DNA of 64,000 nt from a virus. This document shows positions 7,305 to 31,637 of this stretch, in pieces. The notes beneath the pieces are model-generated. The model was not told where the DNA came from, made no database searches, and saw only the letters and a list, made by a program, of their open reading frames with translations. Position numbers and translations under genes: made by a program. The DNA is taken from the IMG/VR virus record IMGVR_UViG_3300046314_000148, positions 48,246-112,245 of that record; one strand, 5' to 3'. Numbering within the stretch: the first letter of the stretch is position 1; every line of letters starts with the position of its first letter.

Positions 7305-7377
7305 GGCCCCATCGTTTAGAGGCCTAGGACACCGCCCTTTCACGGCGGCAGCACGGGTTCGAATCCCGTTGGGGTCA
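7305..7377 (+). tRNA. tRNA-Glu(TTC)
   Basis: Cloverleaf GGCCCCA...TGGGGTC, anticodon loop CTTTCAC, GTTCGAATC. Confidence 0.95.
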
Positions 7378-7397
7378 CTCATAGAGAGAAGATCGGT

Positions 7398-8291
7398 ATG
7401 ATACTAGTCACAGGTGGTGCAGGATTTATTGGATCCCATCTGGTCGATAAGCTAATCAGTGATGGCTTCACCGTGCGAGTAATTGATAACGAGTCTGCCA
7501 CAGAGAATGATGCCTTCTACTGGAACCCAGAGGCAGACAACCACAAGCTAGACGTGGCTAACTATGAAGCAACTAGGCATCTCTATGATGGAATAGAGGT
7601 TGTCTACCATCTGGCAGCAATCTCCAGAATACAGCCAGCAATTGCCAGCCCACATTCTGTAGTAGAAACAAACATTGTTGGTACAGAAAATGTCCTTCGC
7701 TGTTCCGCAGAGGCAGGGGTGCAAAGGTTTGTATTCTCATCATCCTCATCTATTTATGGTAATAACGATATTCCAAATGTGGAATCTCAGAATGCAGACT
7801 GCCTAAACGCATACTCATCAAGCAAGCTCTCTGGCGAGCTCATGTGCAATGCAATGCATGGTGTATCTGGAATGGAAACAATCTCTCTTAGATTTTTTAA
7901 TGTTTATGGTGAGCGTCAGCCGTTACGAGGTAAGTACGCAACAGTAATTGGCCTATTCCTTCTCCAGGCCAAAAGAAATTTGCCGCTTACCATAGTGGGT
8001 GACGGGCATCAGACAAGAAGCTTTACTCATGTCTCGGATGTTGTAGATGCATGCTACAGAGCAGGATTCTCTGTTCCCTGGGATGGGGCATTCGGGGATA
8101 CCTATAACGTAGGCTATGAAACCTCGTACTCCATAAATGATGTTGCCAAAATGATATCAGATAACACTGCCAGCATCCCAGAAAGAATAGGGGAAGCTAG
8201 GCACACACTATCTGACTCCTCTAAGTTTAAGGATGTCTTTGGGTGGAAGCCAAATGTATCTCTAGAGGATTGGGTAGCCCAGAATGTCTAA
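7398..8291 (+). CDS. NAD-dependent nucleotide-sugar epimerase/dehydratase
   Basis: VTGGAGFIGSHL, YSSSK, LRFFNVYG. Confidence 0.9.
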   Translation: MILVTGGAGFIGSHLVDKLISDGFTVRVIDNESATENDAFYWNPEADNHKLDVANYEATRHLYDGIEVVYHLAAISRIQPAIASPHSVVETNIVGTENVLRCSAEAGVQRFVFSSSSSIYGNNDIPNVESQNADCLNAYSSSKLSGELMCNAMHGVSGMETISLRFFNVYGERQPLRGKYATVIGLFLLQAKRNLPLTIVGDGHQTRSFTHVSDVVDACYRAGFSVPWDGAFGDTYNVGYETSYSINDVAKMISDNTASIPERIGEARHTLSDSSKFKDVFGWKPNVSLEDWVAQNV

Positions 8292-9039
8292 CATGCTAAT
8301 TATTGGCAAAGGAAAAGTAGGCCAGGCAACAGCAAGAAGCTTACCCTCAGCGACCATAGACTTTCACGATCCATACATGGGTATGGTAATCGATGACCCA
8401 AGTAGCTATAGCCATGTGATTATCTGTGTAGATACTCTTCAGCAAGGGCCGAGAGATTACAGAGATCTGGACTCTGTCCTAGAATATCTAAGCTCCTACA
8501 AGAACCTTGTGATAGTCAGAAGCACTATCGATCCAGATAAGGCCAGGGAGCTGGGCCACCTCTTTGGAGATAACCTAATTATTTTCCCAGAGTTCATGGA
8601 CCATCATGACTTTAAAAATCAGCGTGACCCAGCCTCTAGGATTGTGCTAGGGGGAGCCATCAGCATGACTAATGCCTTCTTCGAATTGCTGGGAGATCTC
8701 GGGTATCCATGGATTAGAGACACGTTCTTCGTATCTCATGAAGAAGCATCAATAATAAAACTATCATCTAACGCAGCATTAGCCACTAAGGTAATCATGT
8801 TTAATGCAATATACGAGATCTGCAATAATTATGGAGTACCCTACGATGAGGTCAGGAAGGCTATAGGTGCTGATTCTAGAATTGGTCTTGGACATACCCT
8901 GGTGCCAAGTCCAGATGATGGCCAGCTAGGGTTTGGTGGCCATTGCTTGCCAAAAGACATAAAGGCAATAGCAGACATTGACAGCCTTGGATTCTTTAGT
9001 TTCGTAAACAATTTAAATAAAAGGCTTGGCAGATCCTAA
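8284..9039 (+). CDS. UDP-glucose/GDP-mannose dehydrogenase family protein
   Basis: GKGKVG, IVRSTI, PEF, KLSSNAALATK, GFGGHCLPKD. Confidence 0.9.
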   Translation: MSNMLIIGKGKVGQATARSLPSATIDFHDPYMGMVIDDPSSYSHVIICVDTLQQGPRDYRDLDSVLEYLSSYKNLVIVRSTIDPDKARELGHLFGDNLIIFPEFMDHHDFKNQRDPASRIVLGGAISMTNAFFELLGDLGYPWIRDTFFVSHEEASIIKLSSNAALATKVIMFNAIYEICNNYGVPYDEVRKAIGADSRIGLGHTLVPSPDDGQLGFGGHCLPKDIKAIADIDSLGFFSFVNNLNKRLGRS

Positions 9040-9072
9040 ATTGTATGCTACAATATATCCATGGAGATAACT

Positions 9073-9162
9073 ATGAAGTCAAACCAGCATCCGCATCAGC
9101 GATATAGCTTGGCCTACTCGTGGCAACAGCATGCCAGCCTCCAGAGCATTCGCTCACTATAA
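9073..9162 (+). CDS. 29-aa leader-type peptide upstream of tRNA array
   Basis: GGAG RBS; MKSNQHPHQRYSLAYSWQQHASLQSIRSL. Confidence 0.4.
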   Translation: MKSNQHPHQRYSLAYSWQQHASLQSIRSL

Positions 9163-9194
9163 ATCAAACAATCTATAACTTAATAAACATATAA

Positions 9195-9265
9195 TCCTCA
9201 CTGGTGTAGTGGTAGCACAACAGCTTCCAAACCTGTTGGTCTGAGTTCGATTCTTAGGTGGGGGG
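9195..9265 (+). tRNA. tRNA-Trp(CCA)
   Basis: Cloverleaf; loop TTCCAAA; C31-C39 mismatch. Confidence 0.8.
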
Positions 9266-9270
9266 CGTAA

Positions 9271-9342
9271 ACCAATATAGCTCAACGGAAGAGCATTTGC
9301 CTACGAAGCAAAGGGTTAAAGGTTCGAATCCTTTTATTGGTA
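9271..9342 (+). tRNA. tRNA-Arg(ACG)
   Basis: ACCAATA/TATTGGT acceptor; TTTGC-CTACGAA-GCAAA. Confidence 0.9.
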
Positions 9343-9367
9343 CTGATAACTAAATATAGAAATGCAA

Positions 9368-9450
9368 GGAAGTGCGTCGCAGTTGGAGAGGCGAGGCGGT
9401 CTGTAAAACCGTTGGGTGCACCTAAGTCAGTTCGAATCTGACCACTTCCA
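9368..9450 (+). tRNA. tRNA-Tyr(GTA)
   Basis: GGAAGTG/CACTTCC; GCGGT-CTGTAAA-ACCGT; long variable arm. Confidence 0.9.
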
Positions 9451-9452
9451 CT

Positions 9453-9526
9453 GTGTACGTAGTTCAATGGTAGAACGCTTGGTTGTGGTCCAAGGAATGG
9501 GGGTTCAATTCCCCTCGTGCACCCCA
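9453..9526 (+). tRNA. tRNA-His(GTG)
   Basis: CTTGG-TTGTGGT-CCAAG; C73 plus encoded CCA. Confidence 0.9.
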
Positions 9527-9599
9527 GCTCTTCTAGCCCAATGGCAGAGGCAACGGCTTCAAAACCCGTTTAGTGTAAGTTCGAATCTTACGAGGAGCA
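9527..9599 (+). tRNA. tRNA-Leu(CAA), short variable region
   Basis: GCTCTTC/GAGGAGC; loop TTCAAAA; C31-C39 mismatch. Confidence 0.8.
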
Positions 9600-9601
9600 C
9601 A

Positions 9602-9694
9602 AGTTACATAGTATAGTAGGCAGTACGCCATAGTCTATAAACTGTATGCAGCAGATGGCTAGGGGAAGCATGGGTTCGAGTCCCATTGTAACTA
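9602..9694 (+). ncRNA. tRNA-like RNA with enlarged, non-canonical anticodon arm
   Basis: Perfect AGTTACA/TGTAACT acceptor, D-arm, ATGGG-TTCGAGT-CCCAT T-arm; ~20 extra nt in anticodon arm. Confidence 0.7.
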
Positions 9695-9723
9695 GGTAAG
9701 GTAATGATCTGCCTTACCGATCT

Positions 9724-9795
9724 ACTCCTATGGTGTAATTGGCAACACTACGGTTTTTGGTACCGTCATTTTTGGTTCGAGTCCAGATAGGAGTG
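9724..9795 (+). tRNA. tRNA-Gln(TTG)
   Basis: ACTCCTA/TAGGAGT; ACGGT-TTTTGGT-ACCGT. Confidence 0.9.
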
Positions 9796-9878
9796 CTTTG
9801 TTACACAATTGTAATACAAATAAAAATATTCTATTAAACAAATCTGTATAATAGATCTACAACTATAGAGGAGATAAT

Positions 9879-10100
9879 ATGACAACGGTTTATACTAAGC
9901 CAGCATGCGTCCAATGTGACCAGACAAAGAAGCTATTGGATAAGAACGGGGTAGAGTACACAACCATTGATATCTCTAAGGACCAGGAAGCATTCGACAA
10001 GATTGTTGCCATGGGATTCATGTCAGCACCAGTAGTTATTTCTGGAAATGATAGCTGGGCAGGGTTCCAGCCAGATAAAATTAATTCAATAACTGCTTGA
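9879..10100 (+). CDS. nrdH: NrdH-like glutaredoxin
   Basis: TVYTKPACVQC...APVV...WAGFQPDKI. Confidence 0.9.
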   Translation: MTTVYTKPACVQCDQTKKLLDKNGVEYTTIDISKDQEAFDKIVAMGFMSAPVVISGNDSWAGFQPDKINSITA

Positions 10101-10153
10101 CAACTAGCCTCCACCTAAGTATAATAGATATACAAAAGGTATGAGAGGACCCG

Positions 10154-10330
10154 ATGCACGAAGATATCCTAGGCGTAGTGTTTGGCATTGACCACATTAT
10201 TGCAGAGTTCTTTTGGAATGCCATATTCGCAATAGCAGTATTTGCATTTTCAAAAGCCAAGGCTAAGCGTAGCCTACACAAATACATTGATGATAAGCAC
10301 GGTGTAACACACCAGAAGGATGAGTACTAA
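10154..10330 (+). CDS. Small membrane protein (58 aa)
   Basis: Own translation MHEDILGVVFGIDHIIAEFFWNAIF...; GAGG RBS. Confidence 0.55.
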   Translation: MHEDILGVVFGIDHIIAEFFWNAIFAIAVFAFSKAKAKRSLHKYIDDKHGVTHQKDEY

Positions 10331-10331
10331 T

Positions 10332-10622
10332 ATGAGCATTAGACCACTAGAAGATAAGGTAGTCCTAGAGCTGCCAAAGGCAGAAGAAAAGACAACTCAG
10401 TTTGGCCTTATCATTGCAGGAACAGCAGATGAGAAGCCACAGGAGGCAATTGTAGTGGCTGTAGGTCCAGGAGCCAAGTTTGCAGACGGTAGTACCATGG
10501 AAATGGCAGTAGAGCCAGGAGATAAGGTTATCTTTTCTAAGTACCAGGGTACAGAGGTAGAACACGAAGGCAAGAAGTATCTAATCGTTGCCTACCGAGA
10601 CATCTTTGCAGTGATTGGATAG
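10332..10622 (+). CDS. groES: Co-chaperonin GroES
   Basis: IRPLEDKVV...EKPQEAIVVAVGPG...GDKVIFSKYQGTEV. Confidence 0.95.
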   Translation: MSIRPLEDKVVLELPKAEEKTTQFGLIIAGTADEKPQEAIVVAVGPGAKFADGSTMEMAVEPGDKVIFSKYQGTEVEHEGKKYLIVAYRDIFAVIG

Positions 10623-10626
10623 TATA

Positions 10627-10824
10627 ATGGGAAGAATTCCAGACATCAACTACGCAGATGAATATGAGCGTGGTTATGAGGCTGCACTACACGCACTGCA
10701 TGATGAATTTGAAAAGGAATACTTTAAGATTGCCGATGAAGATCCGTACTATGCGTACTACATCAAGCATGTTCTAAATGTTATTCGTAAAAAGATTAAT
10801 CCACTTATCGCCATCGATGAGTAG
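10627..10824 (+). CDS. Hypothetical protein
   Basis: ORF in operon. Confidence 0.5.
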   Translation: MGRIPDINYADEYERGYEAALHALHDEFEKEYFKIADEDPYYAYYIKHVLNVIRKKINPLIAIDE

Positions 10825-10979
10825 GCATAGAGCAACCAGCCACTGGTCCTACCTGTGGGGCATTCTTGATTACCCTATTCCAGTTTATAAGCATTGGCTT
10901 CTGAATAGCTGGAACTACTTTACAAAACCAAAGATATCTGCTAAGGTAGCAGAGTACACAAAAAGACTTAGGAGACTCC

Positions 10980-11273
10980 ATGACAGAGCCAATTGAGGGC
11001 CAGCTAAAAGGCATAGGACTTCGTTTAGACCCACAAGAGATACTAATCGCACCGCATGAAGAAGGTGGTCTCAAGTGGGGCTATACGATTATTGATAAGA
11101 CCCACATTCCTACCATGTATATGGGTGGTGAGTGGAAGAATGTTGTCCCAGAGGGTGTCTGGCTGCAAATGCTAGACAACTGGGATGCCATTGCCAAGAC
11201 TGCAAAAGAAGTTTTGGCAGAATATCCAGAGTATCTAGAGTATCCAGAATTGAAGGCACTTGTAAATGACTAA
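10980..11273 (+). CDS. Hypothetical protein
   Basis: AGGAG RBS; overlaps thyX start. Confidence 0.6.
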   Translation: MTEPIEGQLKGIGLRLDPQEILIAPHEEGGLKWGYTIIDKTHIPTMYMGGEWKNVVPEGVWLQMLDNWDAIAKTAKEVLAEYPEYLEYPELKALVND

Positions 11274-11955
11274 TATTAAAGTTCTAGACGAAGGGTACGT
11301 AAGACTAGTAGACACTTTGGGTGACGATCTTTCAGTAGTAAATGCTGCTAGAGTATCTTACGATAAAGAGTCATCAGAGTTTGAGCCACGTGATGAGAAG
11401 CTAATCAACTTCCTGGTACGTGAAGGTCATACCAGTCCATTCAGACACGCAGCACTGACTTTCGAAGTCTATGCTCCGCTGTTCGTTGCACGTCAGTGGT
11501 GGAAGTATGCTGTTTCATCTAGTCACGTAGACGATCAGAACGGATGGAATGAATCATCTCGCCGCTACATCACAGAAGATGAGCAGTTCTACATTCCTGG
11601 ACCAGACGAGTGGCGTAGCAAGCCAGAGAATAGCAAGCAGGGTAGCGGTGAGCCAATCAACGAAAATTTGGGGCAGTTCTACTTCAAGAAGCTAATCGAA
11701 ACTGTAGCTAGCGGTACCAGCCTATATCACCAGGCAATGGATGACAACGTTGCTCCAGAGATTGCACGACTATTCTTGCCAGCATACGGAATGTATGTAC
11801 GTTGGCGTTGGACCGCATCTCTACAGAGCGTAATGACTTTCCTAGACCAGCGACTCGGACATGATGCCCAGGTTGAAATCCAGGAGTATGCAAAGGCAGT
11901 AGAGAAGTTGACAGCAGAAGTATTCCCACAGACCATGAAGGCAGCAAGACAGTGA
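11266..11955 (+). CDS. thyX: FAD-dependent thymidylate synthase
   Basis: VNAARVSY, GHTSPFRH, PLFVARQW, NESSRRY, AQVEIQEYA. Confidence 0.95.
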   Translation: MTNIKVLDEGYVRLVDTLGDDLSVVNAARVSYDKESSEFEPRDEKLINFLVREGHTSPFRHAALTFEVYAPLFVARQWWKYAVSSSHVDDQNGWNESSRRYITEDEQFYIPGPDEWRSKPENSKQGSGEPINENLGQFYFKKLIETVASGTSLYHQAMDDNVAPEIARLFLPAYGMYVRWRWTASLQSVMTFLDQRLGHDAQVEIQEYAKAVEKLTAEVFPQTMKAARQ

Positions 11956-12491
11956 TTATTGGATTAAGCGGATATGCCCAGTCGGGCAAGGACACCGTTG
12001 CTGACTACCTAGTTAAGCAGCATGGCTTTACCAAGGTATCTTTTGCAGATCCTATTAGACAGGCACTAATTCTTCTAGATCCAAAAGTAACTATCGCTGA
12101 CATGCAGGGGGTTCCTTTATCTACTGCCGTTGCTGGCTTGGGTTGGGAGAATGTAAAGGTTGATAGTCCAGACGTTCGTGGCCTGATGCAGCGTATGGGC
12201 ACAGAAGTTGGTCGCCAACTATTTGGTGAAAATTTCTGGGTTAATCAAGCTATGGCAAAAGCCGCAGAATACCCAAGAGTAGTTTTTGCAGATGTCCGCT
12301 TCGAGAACGAGGCAAAATCGATTCTCGAGGCATCTGGGGCCGTCTGGAGGGTATCTAAGCCAGGTGTTTATGCAGCAAATGGACACATATCGGAGACTTC
12401 TTTAGATAATTATTCATTTACTAAAGAGGTAAATAATATTGGTTCTTTGGAGGACCTATATGAGACTGTAGATTATCTTATTAGTCATTAG
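11952..12491 (+). CDS. Deoxynucleoside monophosphate kinase
   Basis: IIGLSGYAQSGKDT, SFADP, LMQRMGTEVGR, DVRFENE, HISE. Confidence 0.9.
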   Translation: MIIGLSGYAQSGKDTVADYLVKQHGFTKVSFADPIRQALILLDPKVTIADMQGVPLSTAVAGLGWENVKVDSPDVRGLMQRMGTEVGRQLFGENFWVNQAMAKAAEYPRVVFADVRFENEAKSILEASGAVWRVSKPGVYAANGHISETSLDNYSFTKEVNNIGSLEDLYETVDYLISH

Positions 12492-12496
12492 TCTTA

Positions 12497-12570
12497 GGGG
12501 TGTTAGCTCAGCTGGTTAGAGCAGCGGACTCATAATCCGTCGGTCGTGGGTTCAAGTCCCACACACCCCA
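12497..12570 (+). tRNA. tRNA with CAT anticodon (Ile2 or elongator Met)
   Basis: GGGGTGT/ACACCCC; GCGGA-CTCATAA-TCCGT. Confidence 0.9.
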
Positions 12571-12574
12571 CTCT

Positions 12575-12648
12575 GCTCCAGTAGCTCAGTAGGTAAGAGC
12601 ATCAGACTTATAAACTGAAGGCCGATGGTTCAATCCCATCCTGGAGTA
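12575..12648 (+). tRNA. tRNA-Ile(TAT)
   Basis: GCTCCAG/CTGGAGT; TCAGA-CTTATAA-ACTGA. Confidence 0.85.
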
Positions 12649-12691
12649 CTTATGGTGTATTATAGTTATTAGACTATAGAAAGAAGAAGAT

Positions 12692-13219
12692 GTGGACATA
12701 TCTATAAACAGTTTTCCAAGAAGTGGATCACAGTTTCTTAAGTTTAATCTAGATAATATGATTGGACATCGAAGAGTTGCCAAAAATCCACCGAATCTTC
12801 ATAAGATACTTAAAGATAGAAGCTACTTTCAGGTTGTTGTTGTCAGAAATCCGAGGGACACTGTAATATCCTGCATCGCTCATTCGGAATACCTTAGACA
12901 CGGGAGCAGCAAGAACATAAAACAGGTGCTAGTAGACACCTTGCGAGAGTACTGTAATGCAATAGATAACTTTTTGGAAAATGTACAGCATATAAATCTT
13001 TACGATTTTGAATATCTGGATTGGGCAGTAATTGATATTGCAAACAAGGCAAAGATTGATATTCCAGACAGCTTTGTCCTTACTCCAAAGCACTACAGTG
13101 TGAGCGACACAGATTTTTATCAGGACCTATTGGATGCAGACATAGATGACTCTTTATTTGAAGAGGCAAATAAGAAGTACGAGTCAATCCTAAGCTTCTG
13201 CCAGAGACCTGCAGATTAA
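12692..13219 (+). CDS. Sulfotransferase-like P-loop protein
   Basis: SFPRSGSQFL (5'-PSB-like) and VVRNPRD..IS (3'-PB-like). Confidence 0.7.
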   Translation: MDISINSFPRSGSQFLKFNLDNMIGHRRVAKNPPNLHKILKDRSYFQVVVVRNPRDTVISCIAHSEYLRHGSSKNIKQVLVDTLREYCNAIDNFLENVQHINLYDFEYLDWAVIDIANKAKIDIPDSFVLTPKHYSVSDTDFYQDLLDADIDDSLFEEANKKYESILSFCQRPAD

Positions 13220-13914
13220 TTAGAGCTAGCAGTACTTTCATATATAGATGGTTCTGGAAACATCTCCATCAGCATATCAAGAATCTTTTCAAACGAGCTG
13301 TCTTCTGTGGACAGGAAGTAGGATTCCCCACTCAGGAAGTCGTATGACCTAGAGCTCATCCTTCCCTTAGAGTATACCTTTACATCATTGCTTATCGATC
13401 CACCGATACCAAAGATGTTTCCATAGTTTGATCTTTCTAAGTATGGCATAGTGAGCACCTTGTCAAGCAGTATCTTATTCATGACCATCGGTACGTGGAT
13501 GTCATAGTCTAGTGGATTTGGAATGCCAAGCTTAACCAGTCTCTTGTGAGTGCTTGCCAGCAGCCTAGTGTACACTGAGCTTGGGGTTAGCTTCTGATAC
13601 AGGGACACACGATCTTCCAGCAGTCCACCATGCAGCACTGGAATAGAGTCTATCTTTTTAGTGATAAAGAAATCATCGTGCATTGAAACAAAGTCATCAG
13701 ATATTTCATCGCTGCTCACTATGGCAGACATGCACTTCTTTATATTATCAAACTTATACTGGGTATCTCGAATTGGAATAAAGTTTCCAGTGTACCACTT
13801 AGGCTTATAGCCAATGACCCATATGTTTCCAGGTGGTAGGTTTTCAACAACAGATCGAATCGAGTATCGAAGCTCTTCGTTATCACCTTTACGACAGATG
13901 TAAACGTAATCCAT
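13216..13914 (-). CDS. Stealth-like (hexose-1-phosphate transferase-like) protein
   Basis: MDYVY, EELRYSIRSV, ISDDFVSMHDDFF, HVPM. Confidence 0.65.
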   Translation of the reverse strand: MDYVYICRKGDNEELRYSIRSVVENLPPGNIWVIGYKPKWYTGNFIPIRDTQYKFDNIKKCMSAIVSSDEISDDFVSMHDDFFITKKIDSIPVLHGGLLEDRVSLYQKLTPSSVYTRLLASTHKRLVKLGIPNPLDYDIHVPMVMNKILLDKVLTMPYLERSNYGNIFGIGGSISNDVKVYSKGRMSSRSYDFLSGESYFLSTEDSSFEKILDMLMEMFPEPSIYESTASSN

Positions 13915-14948
13915 TATTCTCCGTGGTGATTAGGAAAAACCTTCGCAGTGTTCTCACACATATCATCTACAAGATCAACGAAGGAACGCTTTCTAACCCA
14001 TCCAAGCTTGGTAGAAGCCTTTGTGCAGTCTCCTAGAAGGGTCTCTACCTCTGCTGGTCTAAAGAACTTAGGGTTAATTCTAATAACAGTCTTGCCAGAA
14101 ATGGTGTCAACACCAACCTCATCTAGGCCTTCACCCTGCCACTCGATCTTCATTCCGAAATAGTCTCCAGCCTTCTCAACAAACTCTCTGACCGAGTGCT
14201 GCTCTCCAGTAGAGATTACATAGTCATCGGGGGCATCCTGCTGTAGCATTAGCCACATTGCGTATACGAAATCTTTTGCATGCCCCCAGTCTCGCATGGC
14301 ATCTAGGTTGCCCAGCTCTAGGACATCCTGTCTTCCAACACTAATGTTGTTTAAACCAAGAACGATTTTGCTTGTAACAAAGTTTACTCCACGTCTCGGG
14401 CTCTCGTGATTGAAGAGAATGCCGCTAGACGCATGCATACCGTAAGACTCTCTATAGTTCTTGGTAATCCAGTGGCCATATAGCTTTGCTACACCGTAAG
14501 GAGAGCGAGGGTAGAAGTCTGTAGTTTCTTTCTGAGGTACTTCTTGGACAAGGCCAAACATCTCAGAGGTGCTTGCCTGATAGAAGCGAGTCTTATCCTT
14601 TAGTCCTAGAACTCGGATTGCCTCTAAGATTCTTAGTGGCCCAAGGGCATCTGTCTCAGCAGTAAACTCTGCGGTATCAAACGATACCTGGACATGGCTC
14701 TGAGCACCCAGGTTATAGACCTCATCTGGCTCAATGATCTTAATAAGATTAGTTATTGACGCAGAGTCTGTCAAGTCTCCTTGGTGGAGAAATAGGCTGT
14801 CATTATCAAGAATGTTCTTGATTCGTGTAAAGTTATCAGTCGATGATCTACGAACAAGTCCGTGTACTTCGTATCCGATGTTTAGCAGTAGTTCTGCCAA
14901 GTATGAACCATCTTGTCCAGTGATTCCCGTGATGAGAGCTTTCTTCAT
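13914..14948 (-). CDS. gmd: GDP-mannose 4,6-dehydratase
   Basis: [49 protein letters not shown]. Confidence 0.97.
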
Positions 14949-15015
14949 TTATAATCCTATCTTATAAAAAGTATAGCATAAGAGACTATGGTACACTTGT
15001 TGTTAGGAGTTCACA

Positions 15016-16944
15016 TTGTCAAGAGTATTAGTATTATCTTCAACCCCAGACCCGTTCTCAGAAAATCATGGGGGTAAGCAGCGACTAGTAAAGTTACTGA
15101 GATCGCTTTCAACCAGGCATTCCGTCACCCTATTATCCCTTAGCTGGGAAGGGCAGGAGTTTCGCAAAGAGATATCCGAAAGACTTATCCACATATCAGT
15201 TGCAGTAGAGCCAGAGGTTATTCGTGCAGCCAGGGGAAGAACGACCCTTAAGAAGCCAAACAACGACACAAGAATTGCATACTTTAAAAGATACTTCAAG
15301 AGCTATAAGGCCAAGCTAAAGGACCTAGCAGAGGTTCACGACATCATTGTTGTAGACCACTATGCAACAGCACCACTAGTTCATTCAGTCAAGACAGACA
15401 TTCCAGTTTTCTATTCCTCTCAGAACTTTGAAACAGACCTTGCTAACCAGGTTTTCCCAAAAAGATCTGAAGATATCCGCATAGTAAATGAAACTGAGAA
15501 AGATATCATAGATCGATCATCTGCCATAGGATACTGTTCCGTAGATGACTTCGAGGCAATGAGGTCTCATTTCATTATTGATAAGCCAGCATATTACATT
15601 CCAAATGGAAATGATATGGTTCCTGGCATATCTGCTGGGGCAGGTCAGAAGTCAAAGAGAATTATCTTTATTGGAAGCGGTCACCCACCAAACATTATTG
15701 CAGCAGAAAGAGTTATAGAGTTGGCAAAGATGGTTCCAGACTATGACTTCGTAATAGCTGGCTCCTGTGTCGGTGGTGTTGACCACCTACCAGCTCCAAA
15801 GAACCTTATTAAGATAAGGGAGATTAGCAATGACGAAGTAGAGGACCTATTCTCTAATGCCTTTGCCTTTATCAACCCAATGAAGTCTGGTTCTGGAACA
15901 CACCTCAAGATGATGAAGGCTCTTAGCTATGGGCTGCCCATCATTTCATCACCAGTAGGGGCTAGAGGATTCTCTCAGGCAGAGAAGGATAGCTGCATGG
16001 TTATCTCTGAAACTCCAGAGGAAATGGTAAAGGCTATAAAGCTTATTACCGATTCTGCAGTATACAACAAGATGTCTGAAAGATCGCTAGAGCTTTCAAA
16101 AGACTACGACTGGAAAAAGATCGGGGAGTCCTTTATCTCTGCGATTGAACAAACGATAGCAAACAAAAGAGAAGGCCTACCCATGATACAGGTTGAAACT
16201 AACAATGATCCAAAGAAGGAAAAGATTCTTCTATATTCGATCATTAGAAATGAAAGTAAATATATAGATTCATACCACAAGAAGCTAAACAATATTGTTA
16301 AGAACTTCCCCAACTATGAATTCTATCTATCTATCTATGAGAACGACTCTACTGATGACACTAAGCAAAAGCTTCAGGGCAAGGACTGGTCATCATTTTC
16401 TCGTGTATCTCTAATCTTAGAGGATGTTCAGACCAAGTTCTATGGCTCAGTCAAGGATGGCGATCGAGTAAAGAACCTGTCAATAGCCAGGAACAAGGCC
16501 ATAGAGGCTGGCGGATTTATCAACGATGTTGACTACGTCATGATGGTAGAGGCTGACGTAGAGTTTGACATGAACACTGTTTCCAGAATCCTCAACTTCA
16601 AGAATGTTGTGCCAGACTTCGACATCGTATCTGGAATAACCATTCGTAATAAGAGATTATATGATCAGTGGGCTACCAGAAAGAAACCAGTCTACGACGA
16701 GGGCATCTATCCAATTGATGACGACTACAAGATGAAGGCTTACGATAGGTACTACTCTACATCTAATGGTATCTGCCTGTACAGGGCCAAGCCATTCCAA
16801 GAGGGCATCCGTTATGGATGGATAAACAATGTCACCAATGAATTTGATTGTGAGATGGTTGTTGTCTGCCAAAGCTTCCATGACAACGGTTACGAGAATG
16901 TCTATATAATCCATGATGCAGAGATATATCACGAACACAAATAG
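15016..16944 (+). CDS. Two-domain glycosyltransferase (GT4-like GT-B plus GT-A-like C-terminal domain)
   Basis: GSGTHLKMMKALSYGLPIISSPVGARG; C-terminal YENDSTDDT, LSIARN, VEADV. Confidence 0.8.
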   Translation: MSRVLVLSSTPDPFSENHGGKQRLVKLLRSLSTRHSVTLLSLSWEGQEFRKEISERLIHISVAVEPEVIRAARGRTTLKKPNNDTRIAYFKRYFKSYKAKLKDLAEVHDIIVVDHYATAPLVHSVKTDIPVFYSSQNFETDLANQVFPKRSEDIRIVNETEKDIIDRSSAIGYCSVDDFEAMRSHFIIDKPAYYIPNGNDMVPGISAGAGQKSKRIIFIGSGHPPNIIAAERVIELAKMVPDYDFVIAGSCVGGVDHLPAPKNLIKIREISNDEVEDLFSNAFAFINPMKSGSGTHLKMMKALSYGLPIISSPVGARGFSQAEKDSCMVISETPEEMVKAIKLITDSAVYNKMSERSLELSKDYDWKKIGESFISAIEQTIANKREGLPMIQVETNNDPKKEKILLYSIIRNESKYIDSYHKKLNNIVKNFPNYEFYLSIYENDSTDDTKQKLQGKDWSSFSRVSLILEDVQTKFYGSVKDGDRVKNLSIARNKAIEAGGFINDVDYVMMVEADVEFDMNTVSRILNFKNVVPDFDIVSGITIRNKRLYDQWATRKKPVYDEGIYPIDDDYKMKAYDRYYSTSNGICLYRAKPFQEGIRYGWINNVTNEFDCEMVVVCQSFHDNGYENVYIIHDAEIYHEHK

Positions 16945-16993
16945 TGCTTGACACGTTAATCCACCGATGGTATACTTTATACAAGGAGAAAAT

Positions 16994-17242
16994 ATGTCTA
17001 AAGAATTTAAAGAAAAAGCACTGAAGTATGTAGAGAACTACAAGCTAAAGCGTCCATGTGTGGGCTGTAACCAGATGCTCCACTCTAGCCAACTAGATCC
17101 AGTTGATGGAACTAATGTAGATGCTATCATCAAGGGCATTACAGATAAAGAAACTTACGAGAAGTCTAAGCTAAAGATTGCCCAGCTCTTGTTTATCTGT
17201 GCAAACTGCAACAGGCTCAAGAAGTTCAAAGAGTCCAGATAG
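16994..17242 (+). CDS. Zn-binding degenerate HNH-like protein
   Basis: PCVGC...ICANCNRL; AAGGAG RBS. Confidence 0.5.
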   Translation: MSKEFKEKALKYVENYKLKRPCVGCNQMLHSSQLDPVDGTNVDAIIKGITDKETYEKSKLKIAQLLFICANCNRLKKFKESR

Positions 17243-17248
17243 CAGTAT

Positions 17249-17332
17249 CTCTTGGTGGCGGAATGGTAGACGCACTAGACTTAAAATCTGGGTCCGCAAG
17301 GAGTGTGGGTTCGAGTCCCACCTGAGAGACCA
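17249..17332 (+). tRNA. tRNA-Leu(TAA)
   Basis: CTAGA-CTTAAAA-TCTGG, long variable arm, encoded CCA. Confidence 0.9.
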
Positions 17333-17333
17333 C

Positions 17334-17406
17334 CCCTCCATAGCTCAGTGGATAGAGCAAGAGCCTTCTAATCTCTTGGTCGTAGGTTCGATTCCTACTG
17401 GGGGGA
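17334..17406 (+). tRNA. tRNA-Arg(TCT)
   Basis: CCCTCCA/TGGGGGG; loop CTTCTAA. Confidence 0.9.
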
Positions 17407-28277: not shown

Positions 28278-29285
28278 TTATGCCATAGCGACTTGCTGAA
28301 CAATCTTTAGCAGACGGTTCTTCTCGGCGTTCACCATTGGGTCAAAGCCTGAAGCCGAAGCCAAGATAGATTCGTTAGAGCCACCACGAGAGTTGCGATA
28401 CCAGTCAAGACGCTCGGTTAGTCCGTTCAAAGCACCCCAAGCAGTTCCAGCAATCATGCCGTTTTGGTTGCCACGATAGATAGACTGAATCAAGTCAATC
28501 TTGCCGTCATACTTCTTCTGTGAACCCTTAGCGTCCTTAGCAGGGGCAGGGTAGGCAAGGGCAACAATCTCCTCGAACTGACGCTCGGTGATAGTCTTTT
28601 CAATCATAGCCTGTGCCATCTTGTCGAACTCGTCCATGTATTTGTTAGCCAAGCCAAGAGCCTCACGAGCAACGGCAATCTTGCCTTCTGCTGTCTGAGT
28701 GTGGCGAATCTTGAAAGACTGCTTAGGACCTTTTCGGTTAGCACCAAGAGCAAGGTTTAGAGTGTTAGCACATACAACACGAACAGGGGTAATGCTTGCC
28801 TGAATAGCAACTGAACCATCGTGAGAGGTGTTGATTAGCAGATAGGTGTTGATTTTGTCACTAACGCCAGTAGGGTCTAGGATAGTCTCACGCTCAAGAG
28901 CAAGTGAACCGAATACCTGACGACCACCCTTGATAGAGCCAGCAGTCTCCCAGCGTCCTCCGCCATCGAGAATGTTGTCACCAAAAGCAAACAGGTCTTC
29001 GTTCTGAAGCACCTTGTAACGCTCGCCAACAACACCAAGAATGTCGTTCTGGGTCTTGTCGAATGGGTTAGTTCGGGTAACGAAAGAATAGGTCTTGTCT
29101 GAGTTGAAGCCATCAGGGGTAGCAACATCTTCTAGACGAACATTCCAGTTGTCAAGGTGTGCCAACTTTAGCATTTTCTGAGTAGTGACTTCTTCGGTAA
29201 AGACTGTTCCAAGTCCATGCCATGCTGGCTCTCGCAATGAAGCGAAAGCGGTCTGTCCATCTACTGATTCTAGTTCGTGAGCCAT
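28278..29285 (-). CDS. DUF932 / TIGR03299 phage-plasmid-like protein
   Basis: REPAWHGLG, LQNEDLF, WETAGSIKGGRQVF, NTSHDGS, TPVRVVCANTL, IRHT. Confidence 0.9.
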   Translation of the reverse strand: MAHELESVDGQTAFASLREPAWHGLGTVFTEEVTTQKMLKLAHLDNWNVRLEDVATPDGFNSDKTYSFVTRTNPFDKTQNDILGVVGERYKVLQNEDLFAFGDNILDGGGRWETAGSIKGGRQVFGSLALERETILDPTGVSDKINTYLLINTSHDGSVAIQASITPVRVVCANTLNLALGANRKGPKQSFKIRHTQTAEGKIAVAREALGLANKYMDEFDKMAQAMIEKTITERQFEEIVALAYPAPAKDAKGSQKKYDGKIDLIQSIYRGNQNGMIAGTAWGALNGLTERLDWYRNSRGGSNESILASASGFDPMVNAEKNRLLKIVQQVAMA

Positions 29286-29437: not shown

Positions 29438-29468
29438 AGTGGCCAGTTTTTCGTCATGGCCAGGACGT
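29438..29468 (-). ncRNA. Candidate H-type RNA pseudoknot, copy 1
   Basis: CGTC-CTGGCCAT-GACG-AAAAAC-TGGCCA. Confidence 0.6.
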
Positions 29469-29477
29469 TTCATACCC

Positions 29478-30326
29478 CTATGAAAACATGCGACGTGATT
29501 CTCTCTCGAGCACATCTAGTTTGTCAATTAGCTCCGACAGTAGGTCCCTGTAGTAGCCTGCATCAAAGTTATATTTATGAGACTCAAGATATTCATCATG
29601 CAGTTCAACAGTGTACTGTCTGATTAGTTTATTTAGTTTACTCTTCGTCATCGTGTCCCCAAAAGTTATTAGAGCAGTCTAGGCAAAGGCCTAGTTCTTC
29701 TGCATGGATGTCTGCGTCAACCATTGTTCCACAATCAACGCAAGGTAGTTCACTCGTCTTCTTCGTCATCTTCATCCTCTTCTTCTGGCAGTTCTTCTAC
29801 GGTAATTTCATCTACCTCTGCAGAATGGCTCCAGTTCTCATAGTTCCAGCCTGCCTTCTCGGCTTCTTCCTCGTTTTCGAACTCATCTTCAGTCCAGTAT
29901 TCAACGACGGTCTTTACATAAAACTTTGGCATTCGCTTATCCTAACATCATCATCTCGAATTGTAGCCAGTCATCAAACTCATACTGGCAATCATTACAT
30001 AGGGAGTGAACCGAGTCTACTGGGTCATAGTCTAGGGTTTCTTCGCATTGATAGCATTTGTTCATAGTGTCTACTTTAGCATTACCCTCGGACATTTAGC
30101 AACTCCCATCGGTAGGAATCTGCTCTTCTGGCACACCCATCATTCTTAGGACAGACTGGCTTCTGTTGATGAGTCCCTCGAGGTAGTCACCAAACGAATC
30201 GTTGATGTCTAGACCCTCTTTCTCATCGATGAACATAGCGGTATCACTAAGTAGATAGTTGATAATCTCTTCGTTAGTCATTGCCTTAGCCAACTGTTTC
30301 CTCCTCGACCTGAATTGACCAGTCAC
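29478..30326 (-). CDS. Cluster of small hypothetical genes (29478-29651, 29750-29932, 30096-30326 and others)
   Basis: ORF track plus own translation MTKSKLNKLIRQY... Confidence 0.55.
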
Positions 30327-30617
30327 CGTTAGGCAGCCATTCGTGCTGGGCGATGGCTTGTGAGATTACTTCATCTTCACTTAGTTTCTCATCTGACTCA
30401 ACTTCATACCAAGCAGAGTATTCAATCTCGTAGCGGTATCCCATTAGTTGTTCTCCTCTTCATACTGGCATAGGCAAGGTGTAACACGGATAAGTCCCCT
30501 GCTTTGGTGAACAAGGGCATAACCCTCGCATGCTTCACAGAAATAGGTTGTGTCTTTGGTCAAGGTCATAGGGGTTTCCTTTCGTTGTGCTTCCATTATA
30601 GGGGTAGGGTCAGACAT

Positions 30618-30818
30618 TTAGTCAAGCCACTTAGAAACATCTTGTCCATTTAGAACTGCTTCCATGAACGGGAACTTCTGGTAGTCTGGTAGGTCTTCCA
30701 AAACCTCAAGGTACTCTTCTGGGAACTCGTTGATGTCGGTAACAATAATGTCATCTCCACCCCAGTTGCCATCACGAGATACGTATAGAGCGTGTGGTGC
30801 AAACTTGGTGTAAGCCAT
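30618..30818 (-). CDS. Hypothetical protein
   Basis: AAGGAG RBS, own promoter at 30845. Confidence 0.6.
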   Translation of the reverse strand: MAYTKFAPHALYVSRDGNWGGDDIIVTDINEFPEEYLEVLEDLPDYQKFPFMEAVLNGQDVSKWLD

Positions 30819-31074
30819 GATTTCTCCTTTGATTGATTACTATAACTATACAGCTACCCTCGGACATTATGGGGATTTAATCGGCGTGTCGTAAATAAAA
30901 GTTTTTCTGGCCAGGAGGGGGCGACCCCAGATCACCACAAATGTCAAGCTTGGTTTTTGACAGATGCGGTGTGGGGTGCCAAGAGTCCTTGCGGTTGTTC
31001 CTGACTTGCTTCGTTATCGTGTTAGCCCTCACGCTTGTAAGCCGTTGCCTAGGACACTTACAAGAGGTTTGCTG

Positions 31075-31104
31075 TGAGCAGTTTACCTAGACTTGCTCAG
31101 GTCT
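31075..31104 (-). ncRNA. Candidate H-type RNA pseudoknot, copy 2
   Basis: AGAC-CTGAGCAA-GTCT-AGGTAAAC-TGCTCA. Confidence 0.6.
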
Positions 31105-31116
31105 TAGTTCATCTTG

Positions 31117-31566
31117 TTAGATGAGGTCAATAATGGAGGAGTAGGTGCTTGCGTTTACTTCCTCCTGAGTAGTCATACGCAAGATGCGTAGGTTCTGCTC
31201 TAGGACTGCCTTGCGGTTTAGGTGCTTGTTGCCAATCCACTCAGACTGGTTAGGCTTGACTGGTGCTTCAGGTCGTTTAGGGAAGCCAGCAATCTTGTCA
31301 GCATCAAAGTTTAGTTCCATACGACCAGAGTGTCCAAAGTTTAGTCGAATGTCTGAGTTGTAGTCATAGCCAATCTTATTAGCGTTCTTAGCAACAAACT
31401 CTGAAACAAACTTAGCAACCTTCTTCTTGTATGCTTCAGTTTCCTTTTCATACTTCTCAAAGTCAGCAGGGTAGGAAGCGACATCAGCGTCAATCTTAGC
31501 GATAGCAGCCTCAATCTGAGAAATGATAGCGGAGGTAGGAACTTTTACAGAGATAGCACGAGCCAT
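31117..31566 (-). CDS. Hypothetical protein
   Basis: 149-aa ORF with GAAAG RBS. Confidence 0.7.
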   Translation of the reverse strand: MARAISVKVPTSAIISQIEAAIAKIDADVASYPADFEKYEKETEAYKKKVAKFVSEFVAKNANKIGYDYNSDIRLNFGHSGRMELNFDADKIAGFPKRPEAPVKPNQSEWIGNKHLNRKAVLEQNLRILRMTTQEEVNASTYSSIIDLI

Positions 31567-31602
31567 TAGGGGTATTCTTTCTTTAGGGGTTGTTTAGTTA
31601 GT

Positions 31603-31637
31603 TGGGCAGTTTTTCCAAAAGACATACCCAGGTCTTT
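31603..31637 (-). ncRNA. Candidate H-type RNA pseudoknot, copy 3
   Basis: AAAGAC-CTGGGTAT-GTCTTT-TGGAAAAAC-TGCCCA. Confidence 0.6.

What the first reader, a model, noticed from the sequence alone, without database searches (positions are those of the whole stretch)
29438..31637. Three copies of a small H-type RNA pseudoknot with covarying stems
Seen (minus strand): CGTC-CTGGCCAT-GACG-AAAAAC-TGGCCA; AGAC-CTGAGCAA-GTCT-AGGTAAAC-TGCTCA; AAAGAC-CTGGGTAT-GTCTTT-TGGAAAAAC-TGCCCA. Both stems change sequence but keep pairing (P1 4-6 bp, 8-nt loop, P2 6 bp), with invariant loop C and AAAC linker. Each lies 10-20 nt after a stop codon. Inference: a functional RNA fold such as a ribonuclease-blocking element, processing signal, ligand sensor or an antitoxin-mimic pseudoknot (type III ToxI RNAs are pseudoknots of similar size). 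I cannot assign an Rfam family.
Basis: partly seen in the sequence, partly recalled or inferred. Interest (0 to 1): 0.72.

Follow-up and report, generated by a model that had tools for sequence, protein, structure and literature searches.

The report
Tiny stop-codon-anchored RNA pseudoknot family
The three small pseudoknots are real copies of an uncatalogued 28-base RNA fold that sits just after stop codons in hundreds of phages and mobile elements of very different microbes, and most likely protects the end of the upstream message from being chewed back.

Summary
Observation confirmed and much enlarged. The three minus-strand elements (31637-31603, 31104-31075, 29467-29440) fit one format: S1 (4-6 bp, free sequence) - C - S2 (UGRGYA) - N - S1' - NNAAAC - S2' (UGCYCA). 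Relatives of this ~112 kb phage carry over 150 sense-strand copies against 1 antisense. Both stems covary. When only one half is used as anchor, the other half pairs in most sense-strand cases and never on the antisense strand. A fixed-S2 pattern finds it in at least 119 bacterial or archaeal contigs and at least 120 viral contigs, with S1 still pairing. One contig encodes an RdRp-like ORF.

Rfam 15 has no match, and I found no paper on it. This scan noted a similar tiny pseudoknot on another genome (e1-5778907).

Position is the main clue. There is a hard floor of 5 nt after a stop codon, with the mode at 5-6 nt. Where intergenic space is free, the element stays by the stop. All 19 distinct DUF932-to-tRNA junctions hold one, 3-8 nt before the tRNA. 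Some relatives have an intrinsic terminator at the same spot.

Best reading (about 0.45): a compact triplex-type pseudoknot that ribosomes never unwind and that blocks 3'-to-5' exonucleases. It would stabilise the 3' end without terminating transcription. Riboswitch, ToxI mimic, recoding signal and terminator readings are disfavoured. Function is untested.

The parts
31603..31637 (-). PK3. S1 AAAGAC 31637-31632; L1 C 31631; S2 TGGGTA 31630-31625; L2 T 31624; S1' GTCTTT 31623-31618; L3 TGGAAAAAC 31617-31609; S2' TGCCCA 31608-31603 (one G-U pair in S2). It lies between a 51-aa ORF (stop 31659-31657) and the 149-aa ORF (start 31566).
   Evidence: 39.1 bits
31075..31104 (-). PK2. S1 AGAC 31104-31101; C 31100; S2 TGAGCA 31099-31094; A 31093; S1' GTCT 31092-31089; L3 AGGTAAAC 31088-31081; S2' TGCTCA 31080-31075. 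It starts 12 nt after the stop of the 149-aa ORF (31119-31117). The next ORF starts 257 nt further on, behind promoter-like sites.
   Evidence: (36.7 bits)
29440..29467 (-). PK1. S1 CGTC 29467-29464; C 29463; S2 TGGCCA 29462-29457; T 29456; S1' GACG 29455-29452; L3 AAAAAC 29451-29446; S2' TGGCCA 29445-29440. It starts 10 nt after the stop of a 57-aa ORF (29480-29478) and lies upstream of the promoter-like site 29354-29326 that precedes the DUF932 gene.
   Evidence: (39.3 bits)
28278..29285 (-). DUF932 (PF06067, phrog_1221) gene. This is the gene family most often found immediately upstream of this pseudoknot in relatives. In this phage its own 3' side carries a dyad/promoter element instead of a pseudoknot.
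31117..31566 (-). 149-aa ORF of unknown function, flanked by PK3 (upstream) and PK2 (downstream).

Best explanation
The element is a self-contained, very compact H-type RNA pseudoknot. S1 and S2 stack on each other. The single L1 cytidine crosses the deep groove of S2. The AAAC end of L3 lies in the minor groove of S1. This is the design of luteovirus-type triplex pseudoknots.

It is placed in the 3' untranslated stretch of a gene, as close to the stop codon as a terminating ribosome allows (5-6 nt), so translation never melts it. I propose that it acts as a mechanical barrier to 3'-to-5' exoribonucleases (PNPase, RNase II/R, or their archaeal counterparts). A 3' end is made downstream by RNase P cutting at an adjoining tRNA, by endonucleolytic cleavage in the spacer before the next cistron, or by run-off into the next transcription unit. 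Trimming then stops at the pseudoknot, and the complete upstream ORF with its stop codon survives.

It would give the protection of a terminator hairpin without stopping RNA polymerase. That suits densely packed polycistronic early regions, anti-restriction islands and mRNA-tRNA co-transcripts of phages and mobile elements.

Shown here: the fold by covariation, its strand, its anchoring to stops, and its contexts. Inferred: the triplex details, nuclease blocking and its direction.
For: Structure:
- Covariation in both stems and extreme strand bias.
- S1+L3 is constant at 10 nt, L1 and L2 are 1 nt each, and L1 C and AAAC are invariant.

Anchoring to the upstream stop:
- Among 279 instances the stop-to-S1 gap is 4 nt or less in 5 cases, 5 nt in 43 and 6 nt in 39, and falls off after that.
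- Where 120-250 nt of free intergenic space exist, the element is nearer the stop in 86 of 100 cases. The gap is 12 nt or less on the stop side in 53, but 30 nt or less on the start side in only 8.

tRNA junctions:
- About 35 instances have a same-strand tRNA starting 2-14 nt after the element, and none has a tRNA just before it.
- All 19 distinct DUF932-to-tRNA junctions hold a pseudoknot. Only 3-8 nt lie between it and the tRNA 5' end. By established knowledge of RNase P, it would therefore become the 3'-terminal structure of the mRNA, with a tail too short for PNPase or RNase R to load.

Positional substitution:
- Directly after the DUF932 stop, 40 of 68 distinct relatives have the pseudoknot, 9 have a canonical hairpin-plus-U-tract terminator, and 19 have something else.

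Window context:
- PK1 and PK2 lie at the ends of cassettes before promoter-like sites, in a region without intrinsic terminators above chance.

Breadth:
- It occurs in Saccharibacteria, Bacteroidota, Firmicutes, Proteobacteria, Actinomycetes and Methanobrevibacter contigs, and in an RdRp-like contig. This argues for a self-sufficient or universal mechanism.
Against: - No experiment or transcript-end data exists.
- In Lactobacillaceae prophages the element lies between a minor head gene and the scaffold gene. In the RdRp-like contig it lies between the polymerase ORF and the next ORF. In both places, protecting the downstream message would make as much or more sense.
- The orientation test with neighbouring genes was uninformative: 29 divergent against 36 convergent, on noisy ORF calls.
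- The 5-nt floor and the TAA bias could also reflect a direct role at translation termination.
- A 28-nt pseudoknot of roughly -10 kcal/mol (my estimate from the helix energies) is not obviously stronger than an ordinary hairpin.
Confidence: 0.45

Rival explanations
1. Termination-coupled ribosome element. The pseudoknot abuts the mRNA entry channel of the ribosome sitting on the stop codon. It acts there as a roadblock that stops readthrough or sliding post-termination ribosomes, insulates translation of neighbouring cistrons or tRNAs, or keeps the channel occupied so that rescue systems are not triggered.
For: - The sharp 5-nt floor and 5-6 nt mode of the stop-to-S1 gap match the spacing of frameshift and readthrough pseudoknots.
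- There is a floor of about 19 nt before SD-defined starts.
- The ribosome is the one machine common to all the hosts seen.
- TAA is enriched (70% against 43% background) and 30 of 279 instances have a second in-frame stop at once.
Against: - A floor at the ribosome footprint is expected for any stable structure that must not block termination.
- No downstream feature at fixed distance is served.
- The tRNA junctions and the terminator substitution are not explained.
Confidence: 0.15
2. A prokaryotic xrRNA-like barrier to 5'-to-3' decay or scanning (RNase J, or 5'-end-dependent RNase E). Decay of the upstream part stops at the pseudoknot and leaves a stable downstream message that begins with a folded 5' end.
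For: - The topology (a hairpin whose apical loop pairs with a 3' tail) is that of plant-virus xrRNA-D (PMC6299227; bioRxiv 10.1101/262683).
- It lies before scaffold/capsid genes in Lactobacillaceae prophages.
- It lies in the polymerase-to-next-ORF gap of an RdRp-like contig, which is where polerovirus xrRNAs sit.
- Downstream starts are often 19-35 nt away.
Against: - The element is anchored to the upstream stop, not to the downstream start, whenever there is room.
- ORF-pseudoknot-tRNA is common, while tRNA-pseudoknot-ORF was not seen.
- PK1 and PK2 are followed by new promoters.
- The architecture lacks P2, L1 and L2B of xrRNA-D, and S1 is short enough for L3 to run along the groove rather than ring the 5' end.
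Confidence: 0.13
3. A recognition site for a protein: an endonuclease processing signal (RNase P, E, Y or III-like punctuation) or a regulatory RNA-binding protein carried by the elements, possibly DUF932 itself.
For: - S2 and the AAAC linker are far more conserved in sequence than pairing alone requires, which suggests sequence-specific contacts.
- DUF932 is the commonest upstream gene, in 19 of 94 viral cases.
- Neighbours are typical anti-restriction island genes: ArdA, ArdC, DUF3768, DUF2958.
Against: - Neighbouring genes fall into 97 (upstream) and 177 (downstream) clusters, with no gene always present.
- The sequence conservation can be explained by tertiary triples.
- The 3' flank is C-rich only in this phage lineage, so an RCCA-like RNase P determinant is not general.
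- A cut at the tRNA junctions would be redundant with RNase P.
Confidence: 0.12
4. Recoding signal (stop-codon readthrough or -1 frameshift stimulator), riboswitch, type III antitoxin mimic, or factor-independent terminator.
For: - The spacing after the stop resembles MuLV- or BWYV-type stimulators.
- Size and the A-rich L3 resemble preQ1-I.
- ToxI RNAs are pseudoknots.
Against: - Recoding: the next in-frame stop usually follows within a few codons, 30 instances have tandem stops, and the consensus itself contains UGA and often UAA.
- Riboswitch: it is anchored to stops rather than starts, loops flanking S2 are 1 nt, and there is no Rfam hit.
- ToxI mimic: copies are single and dispersed, and no ToxN-type neighbour appears.
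- Terminator: there is no U-tract, and transcription must continue into adjoining tRNAs.
Confidence: 0.05

Closest known systems
Luteovirus-type compact H-type pseudoknots (BWYV/PEMV frameshifters) and the T2/T4 gene 32 mRNA pseudoknot (from established knowledge)
   Same: Total size is about 28 nt. One or two L1 nucleotides, including a C, cross the deep groove of stem 2. An A-rich last loop lies in the minor groove of stem 1. The stems are coaxial. The spacer to the ribosomal A-site codon is 5-9 nt.
   Different: Those elements lie inside or before coding sequence and act on elongating or initiating ribosomes, or bind gp32. This one lies after a strong stop with no continuing frame. S2 is 6 bp with its own conserved sequence.
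Plant-virus exoribonuclease-resistant RNA, xrRNA-D / class 3 (PMC6299227; bioRxiv 10.1101/262683)
   Same: A small protein-independent fold in which an apical loop pairs with a downstream tail. It has an intergenic position in viral genomes and a proposed nuclease-blocking role.
   Different: xrRNA-D is 43-44 nt with P1, internal loop L1, P2 and a bipartite L2A/L2B loop, and it blocks 5'-to-3' Xrn1. The present element has a single 4-6 bp stem and 1-nt junctions, gives no Rfam match, and its anchoring points to the opposite direction.
Bacterial 3' stabilisers: terminator hairpins, REP elements, 3' 'positive retroregulators' (established knowledge)
   Same: A stable structure just downstream of an ORF that halts PNPase or RNase II. 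Here a terminator occupies the same position in some relatives.
   Different: Those are simple hairpins. This is a sequence-conserved pseudoknot shared across phyla and domains. It does not terminate transcription and is locked to the stop codon at ribosome-footprint distance.
STAXI motif, RF01728 (PMC2864571)
   Same: A pseudoknot motif found near anti-restriction, Ssb and integrase genes of mobile elements. Its function is unknown.
   Different: STAXI is a tandem array of two or three units with UUCG tetraloops, reported for Enterobacteriales. No Rfam hit was found here, and the copies are mostly single.
preQ1-I riboswitch, RF00522
   Same: A very small H-type pseudoknot with an A-rich tail ending in AAAC-like sequence.
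   Different: preQ1-I sits in 5' leaders with P2 covering the SD, and has longer L1/L2 loops that form the ligand pocket. Here the element is tied to stops, L1 and L2 are 1 nt, and there is no Rfam match.

Membership tests
Type III toxin-antitoxin antitoxin RNA (ToxI, CptI, TenpI) | Tandem array of 34-45 nt repeats | tested here: not met
   Three dispersed single copies in 112 kb. Relatives have 3-7 dispersed copies. Tandem pairs were seen in only two unrelated loci.
Type III toxin-antitoxin antitoxin RNA (ToxI, CptI, TenpI) | ToxN/AbiQ-type endoribonuclease gene immediately downstream | tested here: not met
   Pfam on the window ORFs and on 204 downstream ORFs lists no ToxN-type family.
xrRNA-D (class 3 exoribonuclease-resistant RNA) | P1-L1-P2 stem with conserved L1 and L2B, about 43 nt | tested here: not met
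   The sequence shows one 4-6 bp stem and an 8-nt loop. No Rfam match at E up to 10. Family description.
xrRNA-D (class 3 exoribonuclease-resistant RNA) | Apical loop pairs with a 3' tail (pseudoknot supported by covariation) | tested here: met
xrRNA-D (class 3 exoribonuclease-resistant RNA) | Halts Xrn1 or other 5'-to-3' exonucleases without protein | not testable with these tools
   Needs an in vitro degradation assay.
preQ1-I riboswitch | Matches RF00522; lies in a 5' leader with P2 overlapping the SD | tested here: not met
   No Rfam hit. Anchored to the upstream stop, and the distance to the start is variable.
Recoding (frameshift/readthrough) stimulator pseudoknot | Spacer of 5-9 nt from the recoding site | tested here: met
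   Mode of 5-6 nt after the stop.
Recoding (frameshift/readthrough) stimulator pseudoknot | A continuing open frame that encodes an extension | tested here: not met
   The next in-frame stop usually follows within 0-8 codons. 30 of 279 are tandem stops. TAA is preferred. For PK3 there are three in-frame stops before the next ATG.
STAXI motif (RF01728) | Rfam model match; tandem units with UUCG loops | tested here: not met
Intrinsic (Rho-independent) terminator | G+C-rich hairpin directly followed by a U-tract | tested here: not met
   No T-run after S2'. The terminator scan in the region is at chance level. tRNAs follow within 3-8 nt.

The most novel reading that the evidence does not exclude
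This is a first dedicated class of 3'-to-5' exoribonuclease-resistant RNA. It is a 28-nt triplex pseudoknot docked against the terminating ribosome. DNA phages, conjugative or integrative elements of bacteria and archaea, and probably some RNA viruses share it as a portable 'end-of-message' module that stabilises a cistron without terminating transcription.
Probability: 0.3. Interest if true: 0.85.

Novelty: new variant of a known kind. Interest (0 to 1): 0.72.

Why it matters
A 28-nt fold with this much covariation, sequence conservation and positional discipline, spread over phages and mobile elements of many phyla, is a new RNA family by the usual comparative standards. It is absent from Rfam 15.

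If it is an exonuclease barrier, it would explain how terminator-poor early regions and mRNA-tRNA co-transcripts obtain stable messages. It would also add a prokaryotic counterpart to viral xrRNAs, and would offer a very small portable stabiliser or insulator part for synthetic operons.

Its tight link with anti-restriction island genes (DUF932, ArdA, ArdC, DUF3768) also gives a marker for the early or leading regions of mobile elements.

Tried and rejected
- Rfam: searched at gathering and at E up to 10 on the window, on eight motif-bearing loci and on L247. Nothing was found at the motif.
- STAXI: read and rejected.
- xrRNA-D: architecture read and rejected for membership.
- Megablast of the region against GenBank phages: no match.
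- Over-relaxed descriptor scan: only noise.
- Neighbour-gene strand test for direction: uninformative, 29 against 36.
- Model search of five cultured DUF932-bearing phages and of E. coli K-12: no convincing copy. The best scores were 16-18 bits, and the crAss hit was not convincing by eye.
- Literature searches for STAXI, RAGATH, DUF932, xrRNA with phage, intercistronic pseudoknots and the motif words: no description found.
- An RCCA-like 3' flank as an RNase P determinant: the C-rich, G-free flank holds only in this phage lineage. It is better explained as avoiding pairing with the CC at the S1/L1 junction.
- ssDNA structure reading: rejected. The fold is on the sense strand with many G-U pairs (43 of 114 at one S2 position), and it occurs in a likely RNA virus.
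Full report
**What is there**

On the minus strand the window holds three elements of one format. The format is S1 (4-6 bp), one C, S2 5' strand (TGGGTA, TGAGCA or TGGCCA), one nucleotide, S1', a linker ending in AAAC, and the S2 3' strand (TGCCCA, TGCTCA or TGGCCA). Coordinates are 31637-31603, 31104-31075 and 29467-29440.

The elements start 19-21, 12 and 10 nt after the stop codons of a 51-aa, a 149-aa and a 57-aa ORF.

The window is part of a complete 112,245-bp IMG/VR virus record with a tRNA cluster. It has no close GenBank relative.

**Is it more than chance?**

The bare structural descriptor is common, with 15 hits in the genome. With L1=C and AAAC added, the window has 3 hits against a mean of 0.11 in 200 shuffles.

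I built a covariance model from relatives, using the S1 pairs plus sequence (model R1). It scores the three copies at 37-39 bits and nothing else in the genome above 10 bits.

**Relatives**

I fetched 89 loci through the 149-aa and the 335-aa proteins.

- Copy number and strand: the descriptor plus an AAC-ending linker gives 157 sense-strand copies and 1 antisense copy in 711 kb.
- Covariation: in an alignment of 114 distinct copies, all three scored S1 pairs and four of six S2 pairs change on both sides. The covariation score is 0.58 against 0.20 for shuffles and 0.08 or less for slid partners.
- Selection bias: that alignment was selected for pairing, so I added two half-anchored tests.
  - Of 196 sense-strand AAACTG[CG][CT][CT][AG] sites, 183 have a perfect 6-bp partner 9-21 nt upstream and 149 have the whole geometry. 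Of 16 antisense sites, none does.
  - Of 283 sense-strand anchors of the form "4-bp hairpin with a C-first 8-nt loop followed by AAAC", 129 form 6/6 and 49 form 5/6 S2 pairs. The antisense figures are 0 and 1 of 83. There are 20 different S2 combinations.
- Copies per genome: five complete relatives carry 3-7 strong copies each, mostly within about 5 kb around the DUF932 gene.

**Breadth**

The pattern CCTGAGYANGN{5,11}AAACTGCTCA fixes S2 but not S1. It hit at least 119 contigs of species-representative genomes and at least 120 viral contigs.

About 15 chance hits would be expected in 596 Gb (my estimate). The gap is 5 nt in 207 of 262 matches. S1, which is not in the pattern, pairs 4/4 in 117 of 142 viral matches and in 63 of 120 genome matches.

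Carriers include many Saccharibacteria, Bacteroidota, Firmicutes (two cultured Lactobacillaceae), Alpha- and Betaproteobacteria, Actinomycetes and Methanobrevibacter MAGs.

One 1.7-kb viral contig (L247) has a 5'-open ORF that looks like an RNA-dependent RNA polymerase to a protein language model (0.98). It carries an LLQGDDMF motif and is followed 12 nt later by a full copy. This is a lead, not proof, that the element also lives in RNA viruses.

**Anatomy over 347 non-redundant copies**

- L1 C is 100% conserved.
- S2 is U97 G91 A80/G15 G90 C63/U34 A95.
- L2 is A or U in 87%.
- The S1 pair next to the junction is C-G in 90%.
- The last four linker bases are AAAC in 95-100%.
- S2' is U96 G92 C90 U82 C88 A89.
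- S1 plus L3 is almost always 10 nt (4+6, 5+5 or 6+4).

One nucleotide across a 6-bp deep groove and 4-6 nt along a 4-6 bp shallow groove are the classical limits for H-type pseudoknots. The invariant C and the As suggest a C+.G-C triple and A-minor triples, as in luteovirus pseudoknots. That last point is inference.

Nested folding alone gives only -1.6 to -3.4 kcal/mol for S1 and -5.1 to -7.5 kcal/mol for S2. The two helices therefore have to support each other.

**Position**

- Floor after the stop: of 279 copies with an open frame of at least 40 codons ending within 60 nt upstream, the stop-to-S1 gap is 4 nt or less in 5, 5 nt in 43, 6 nt in 39, 7-9 nt in 56, and tails off after that.
- Meaning of the floor: five to six nucleotides is what a ribosome with the stop codon in its A site keeps single-stranded (established knowledge from frameshift spacers). 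The element thus sits as close as it can without being unwound.
- Stop codon use: 70% TAA, 24% TAG and 6% TGA, against 43%, 24% and 33% for long open frames in the same loci. 30 copies have a second in-frame stop at once.
- Floor before the next start: where a start with an SD can be called, the distance from S2' to the start has a floor near 19 nt.
- Anchoring: when there is spare room the element stays with the stop. With 120-250 nt of free intergenic sequence it is nearer the stop in 86 of 100 cases. It lies within 12 nt of the stop in 53 cases, but within 30 nt of the start in 8.

**Contexts**

- Neighbouring genes are very diverse, falling into 97 upstream and 177 downstream clusters.
- The commonest upstream family is DUF932 (19 of 94 viral cases), followed by HSP20 and ribonucleotide reductase.
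- In genomes the neighbours include DUF3768, DUF7249, ArdA, DUF2958, ArdC, IrrE-like peptidases, minor head proteins and scaffold proteins. These are phage early or head modules and anti-restriction islands of mobile elements.
- About 35 copies are followed within 2-14 nt by a same-strand tRNA, and none is closely preceded by one.
- All 19 distinct DUF932-to-tRNA junctions contain a copy, with 3-8 nt between S2' and the tRNA 5' end.
- Directly after the DUF932 stop, 68 distinct relatives have the pseudoknot (40), a textbook hairpin-plus-U-tract terminator (9) or another element (19).
- In the window, PK1 and PK2 precede promoter-like sites and PK3 is intercistronic. Terminator-like sites in the region are at chance level.

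**Mechanism**

The element is an RNA structure. It is on the sense strand only, it has many G-U pairs, and it probably also occurs in an RNA virus.

It belongs to the 3' side of a cistron and is kept out of the ribosome's way. It can stand where a terminator stands, yet it lets transcription run on into tRNAs or further genes.

The simplest reading is a terminator-independent 3' stabiliser, that is, a compact pseudoknot that halts 3'-to-5' exonucleases. At tRNA junctions RNase P would leave it as the 3'-terminal structure with a 3-8 nt tail. By established enzymology that is too short for PNPase or RNase R to engage.

I put this at about 0.45. The rivals are:

- a direct role at termination (0.15);
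- a 5'-to-3' xrRNA-like barrier or scanning obstacle (0.13), which the scaffold-gene and RdRp contexts favour but the anchoring and the tRNA asymmetry disfavour;
- a protein or endonuclease site (0.12);
- the recoding, riboswitch, ToxI and terminator readings together (0.05).

**Known families**

Rfam 15 gives no hit at the element at E up to 10.

- STAXI shares only the neighbourhood.
- xrRNA-D shares only the loop-to-tail topology.
- preQ1-I shares only size and the A-rich tail.
- ToxI shares only the word pseudoknot.

Literature searches found no description. Five cultured DUF932 phages and E. coli K-12 lack convincing copies, so no existing transcriptome could be consulted.

**Verdict**

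The element is a new, widespread RNA family whose function remains to be tested.

Noticed in passing
window 31650-31595 (-): PK3 is bracketed by a 9-nt inverted repeat (TTTAGTTAG ... CTAACTAAA) that could form an enclosing helix around the pseudoknot. I did not check whether it is conserved in relatives.
   Followed up: no
window 31062-31032 (-): About 13 nt after PK2 there is an 8-bp hairpin, CTTGTAAG-(15 nt)-CTTACAAG, with no U-tract.
   Followed up: no
window 30935-30880, 29440-29390 and 28260-28225 (-): A recurrent G+C-rich element (CTGGGG/CTGGGC-N-CGCCCCC, often followed by TATTTACGA) lies after cassette ends and before promoter-like sites. It takes the place of the pseudoknot after the DUF932 gene in this phage and in about a dozen relatives. 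Other first-stage notes call these dyad sites.
   Followed up: partly
window 28278-29285 (-): The 335-aa DUF932 protein is 75-99% identical across more than 440 IMG/VR contigs and 56% identical to Streptomyces BE-cluster phage proteins. This suggests an actinobacterial host. Its function is unknown.
   Followed up: partly
L093:1272-1348 (-), Alistipes finegoldii contig: A RAGATH-1 hammerhead ribozyme (72 bits) lies about 300 nt upstream of a pseudoknot copy on the same strand.
   Followed up: no
L247:1-1732: A 1.7-kb IMG/VR contig with a 5'-open RdRp-like ORF (GDD motif, language-model score 0.98). A stop follows, then 12 nt, then a full pseudoknot copy, then another ORF. It is probably an RNA virus.
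   Followed up: partly
L167:4178-4250 (-) and L248:11872-11954 (+): Two copies in tandem, 20-30 nt apart, in a Sneathiella MAG contig and in a viral contig.
   Followed up: no
L153:2742-2876 (+), Segatella copri contig: A pseudoknot copy sits 7 nt before a tRNA-like gene that carries a 42-nt insertion.
   Followed up: no
window 7305-17406 (+): Eleven tRNA genes in clusters on the plus strand. None is preceded by a pseudoknot in this phage.
   Followed up: partly
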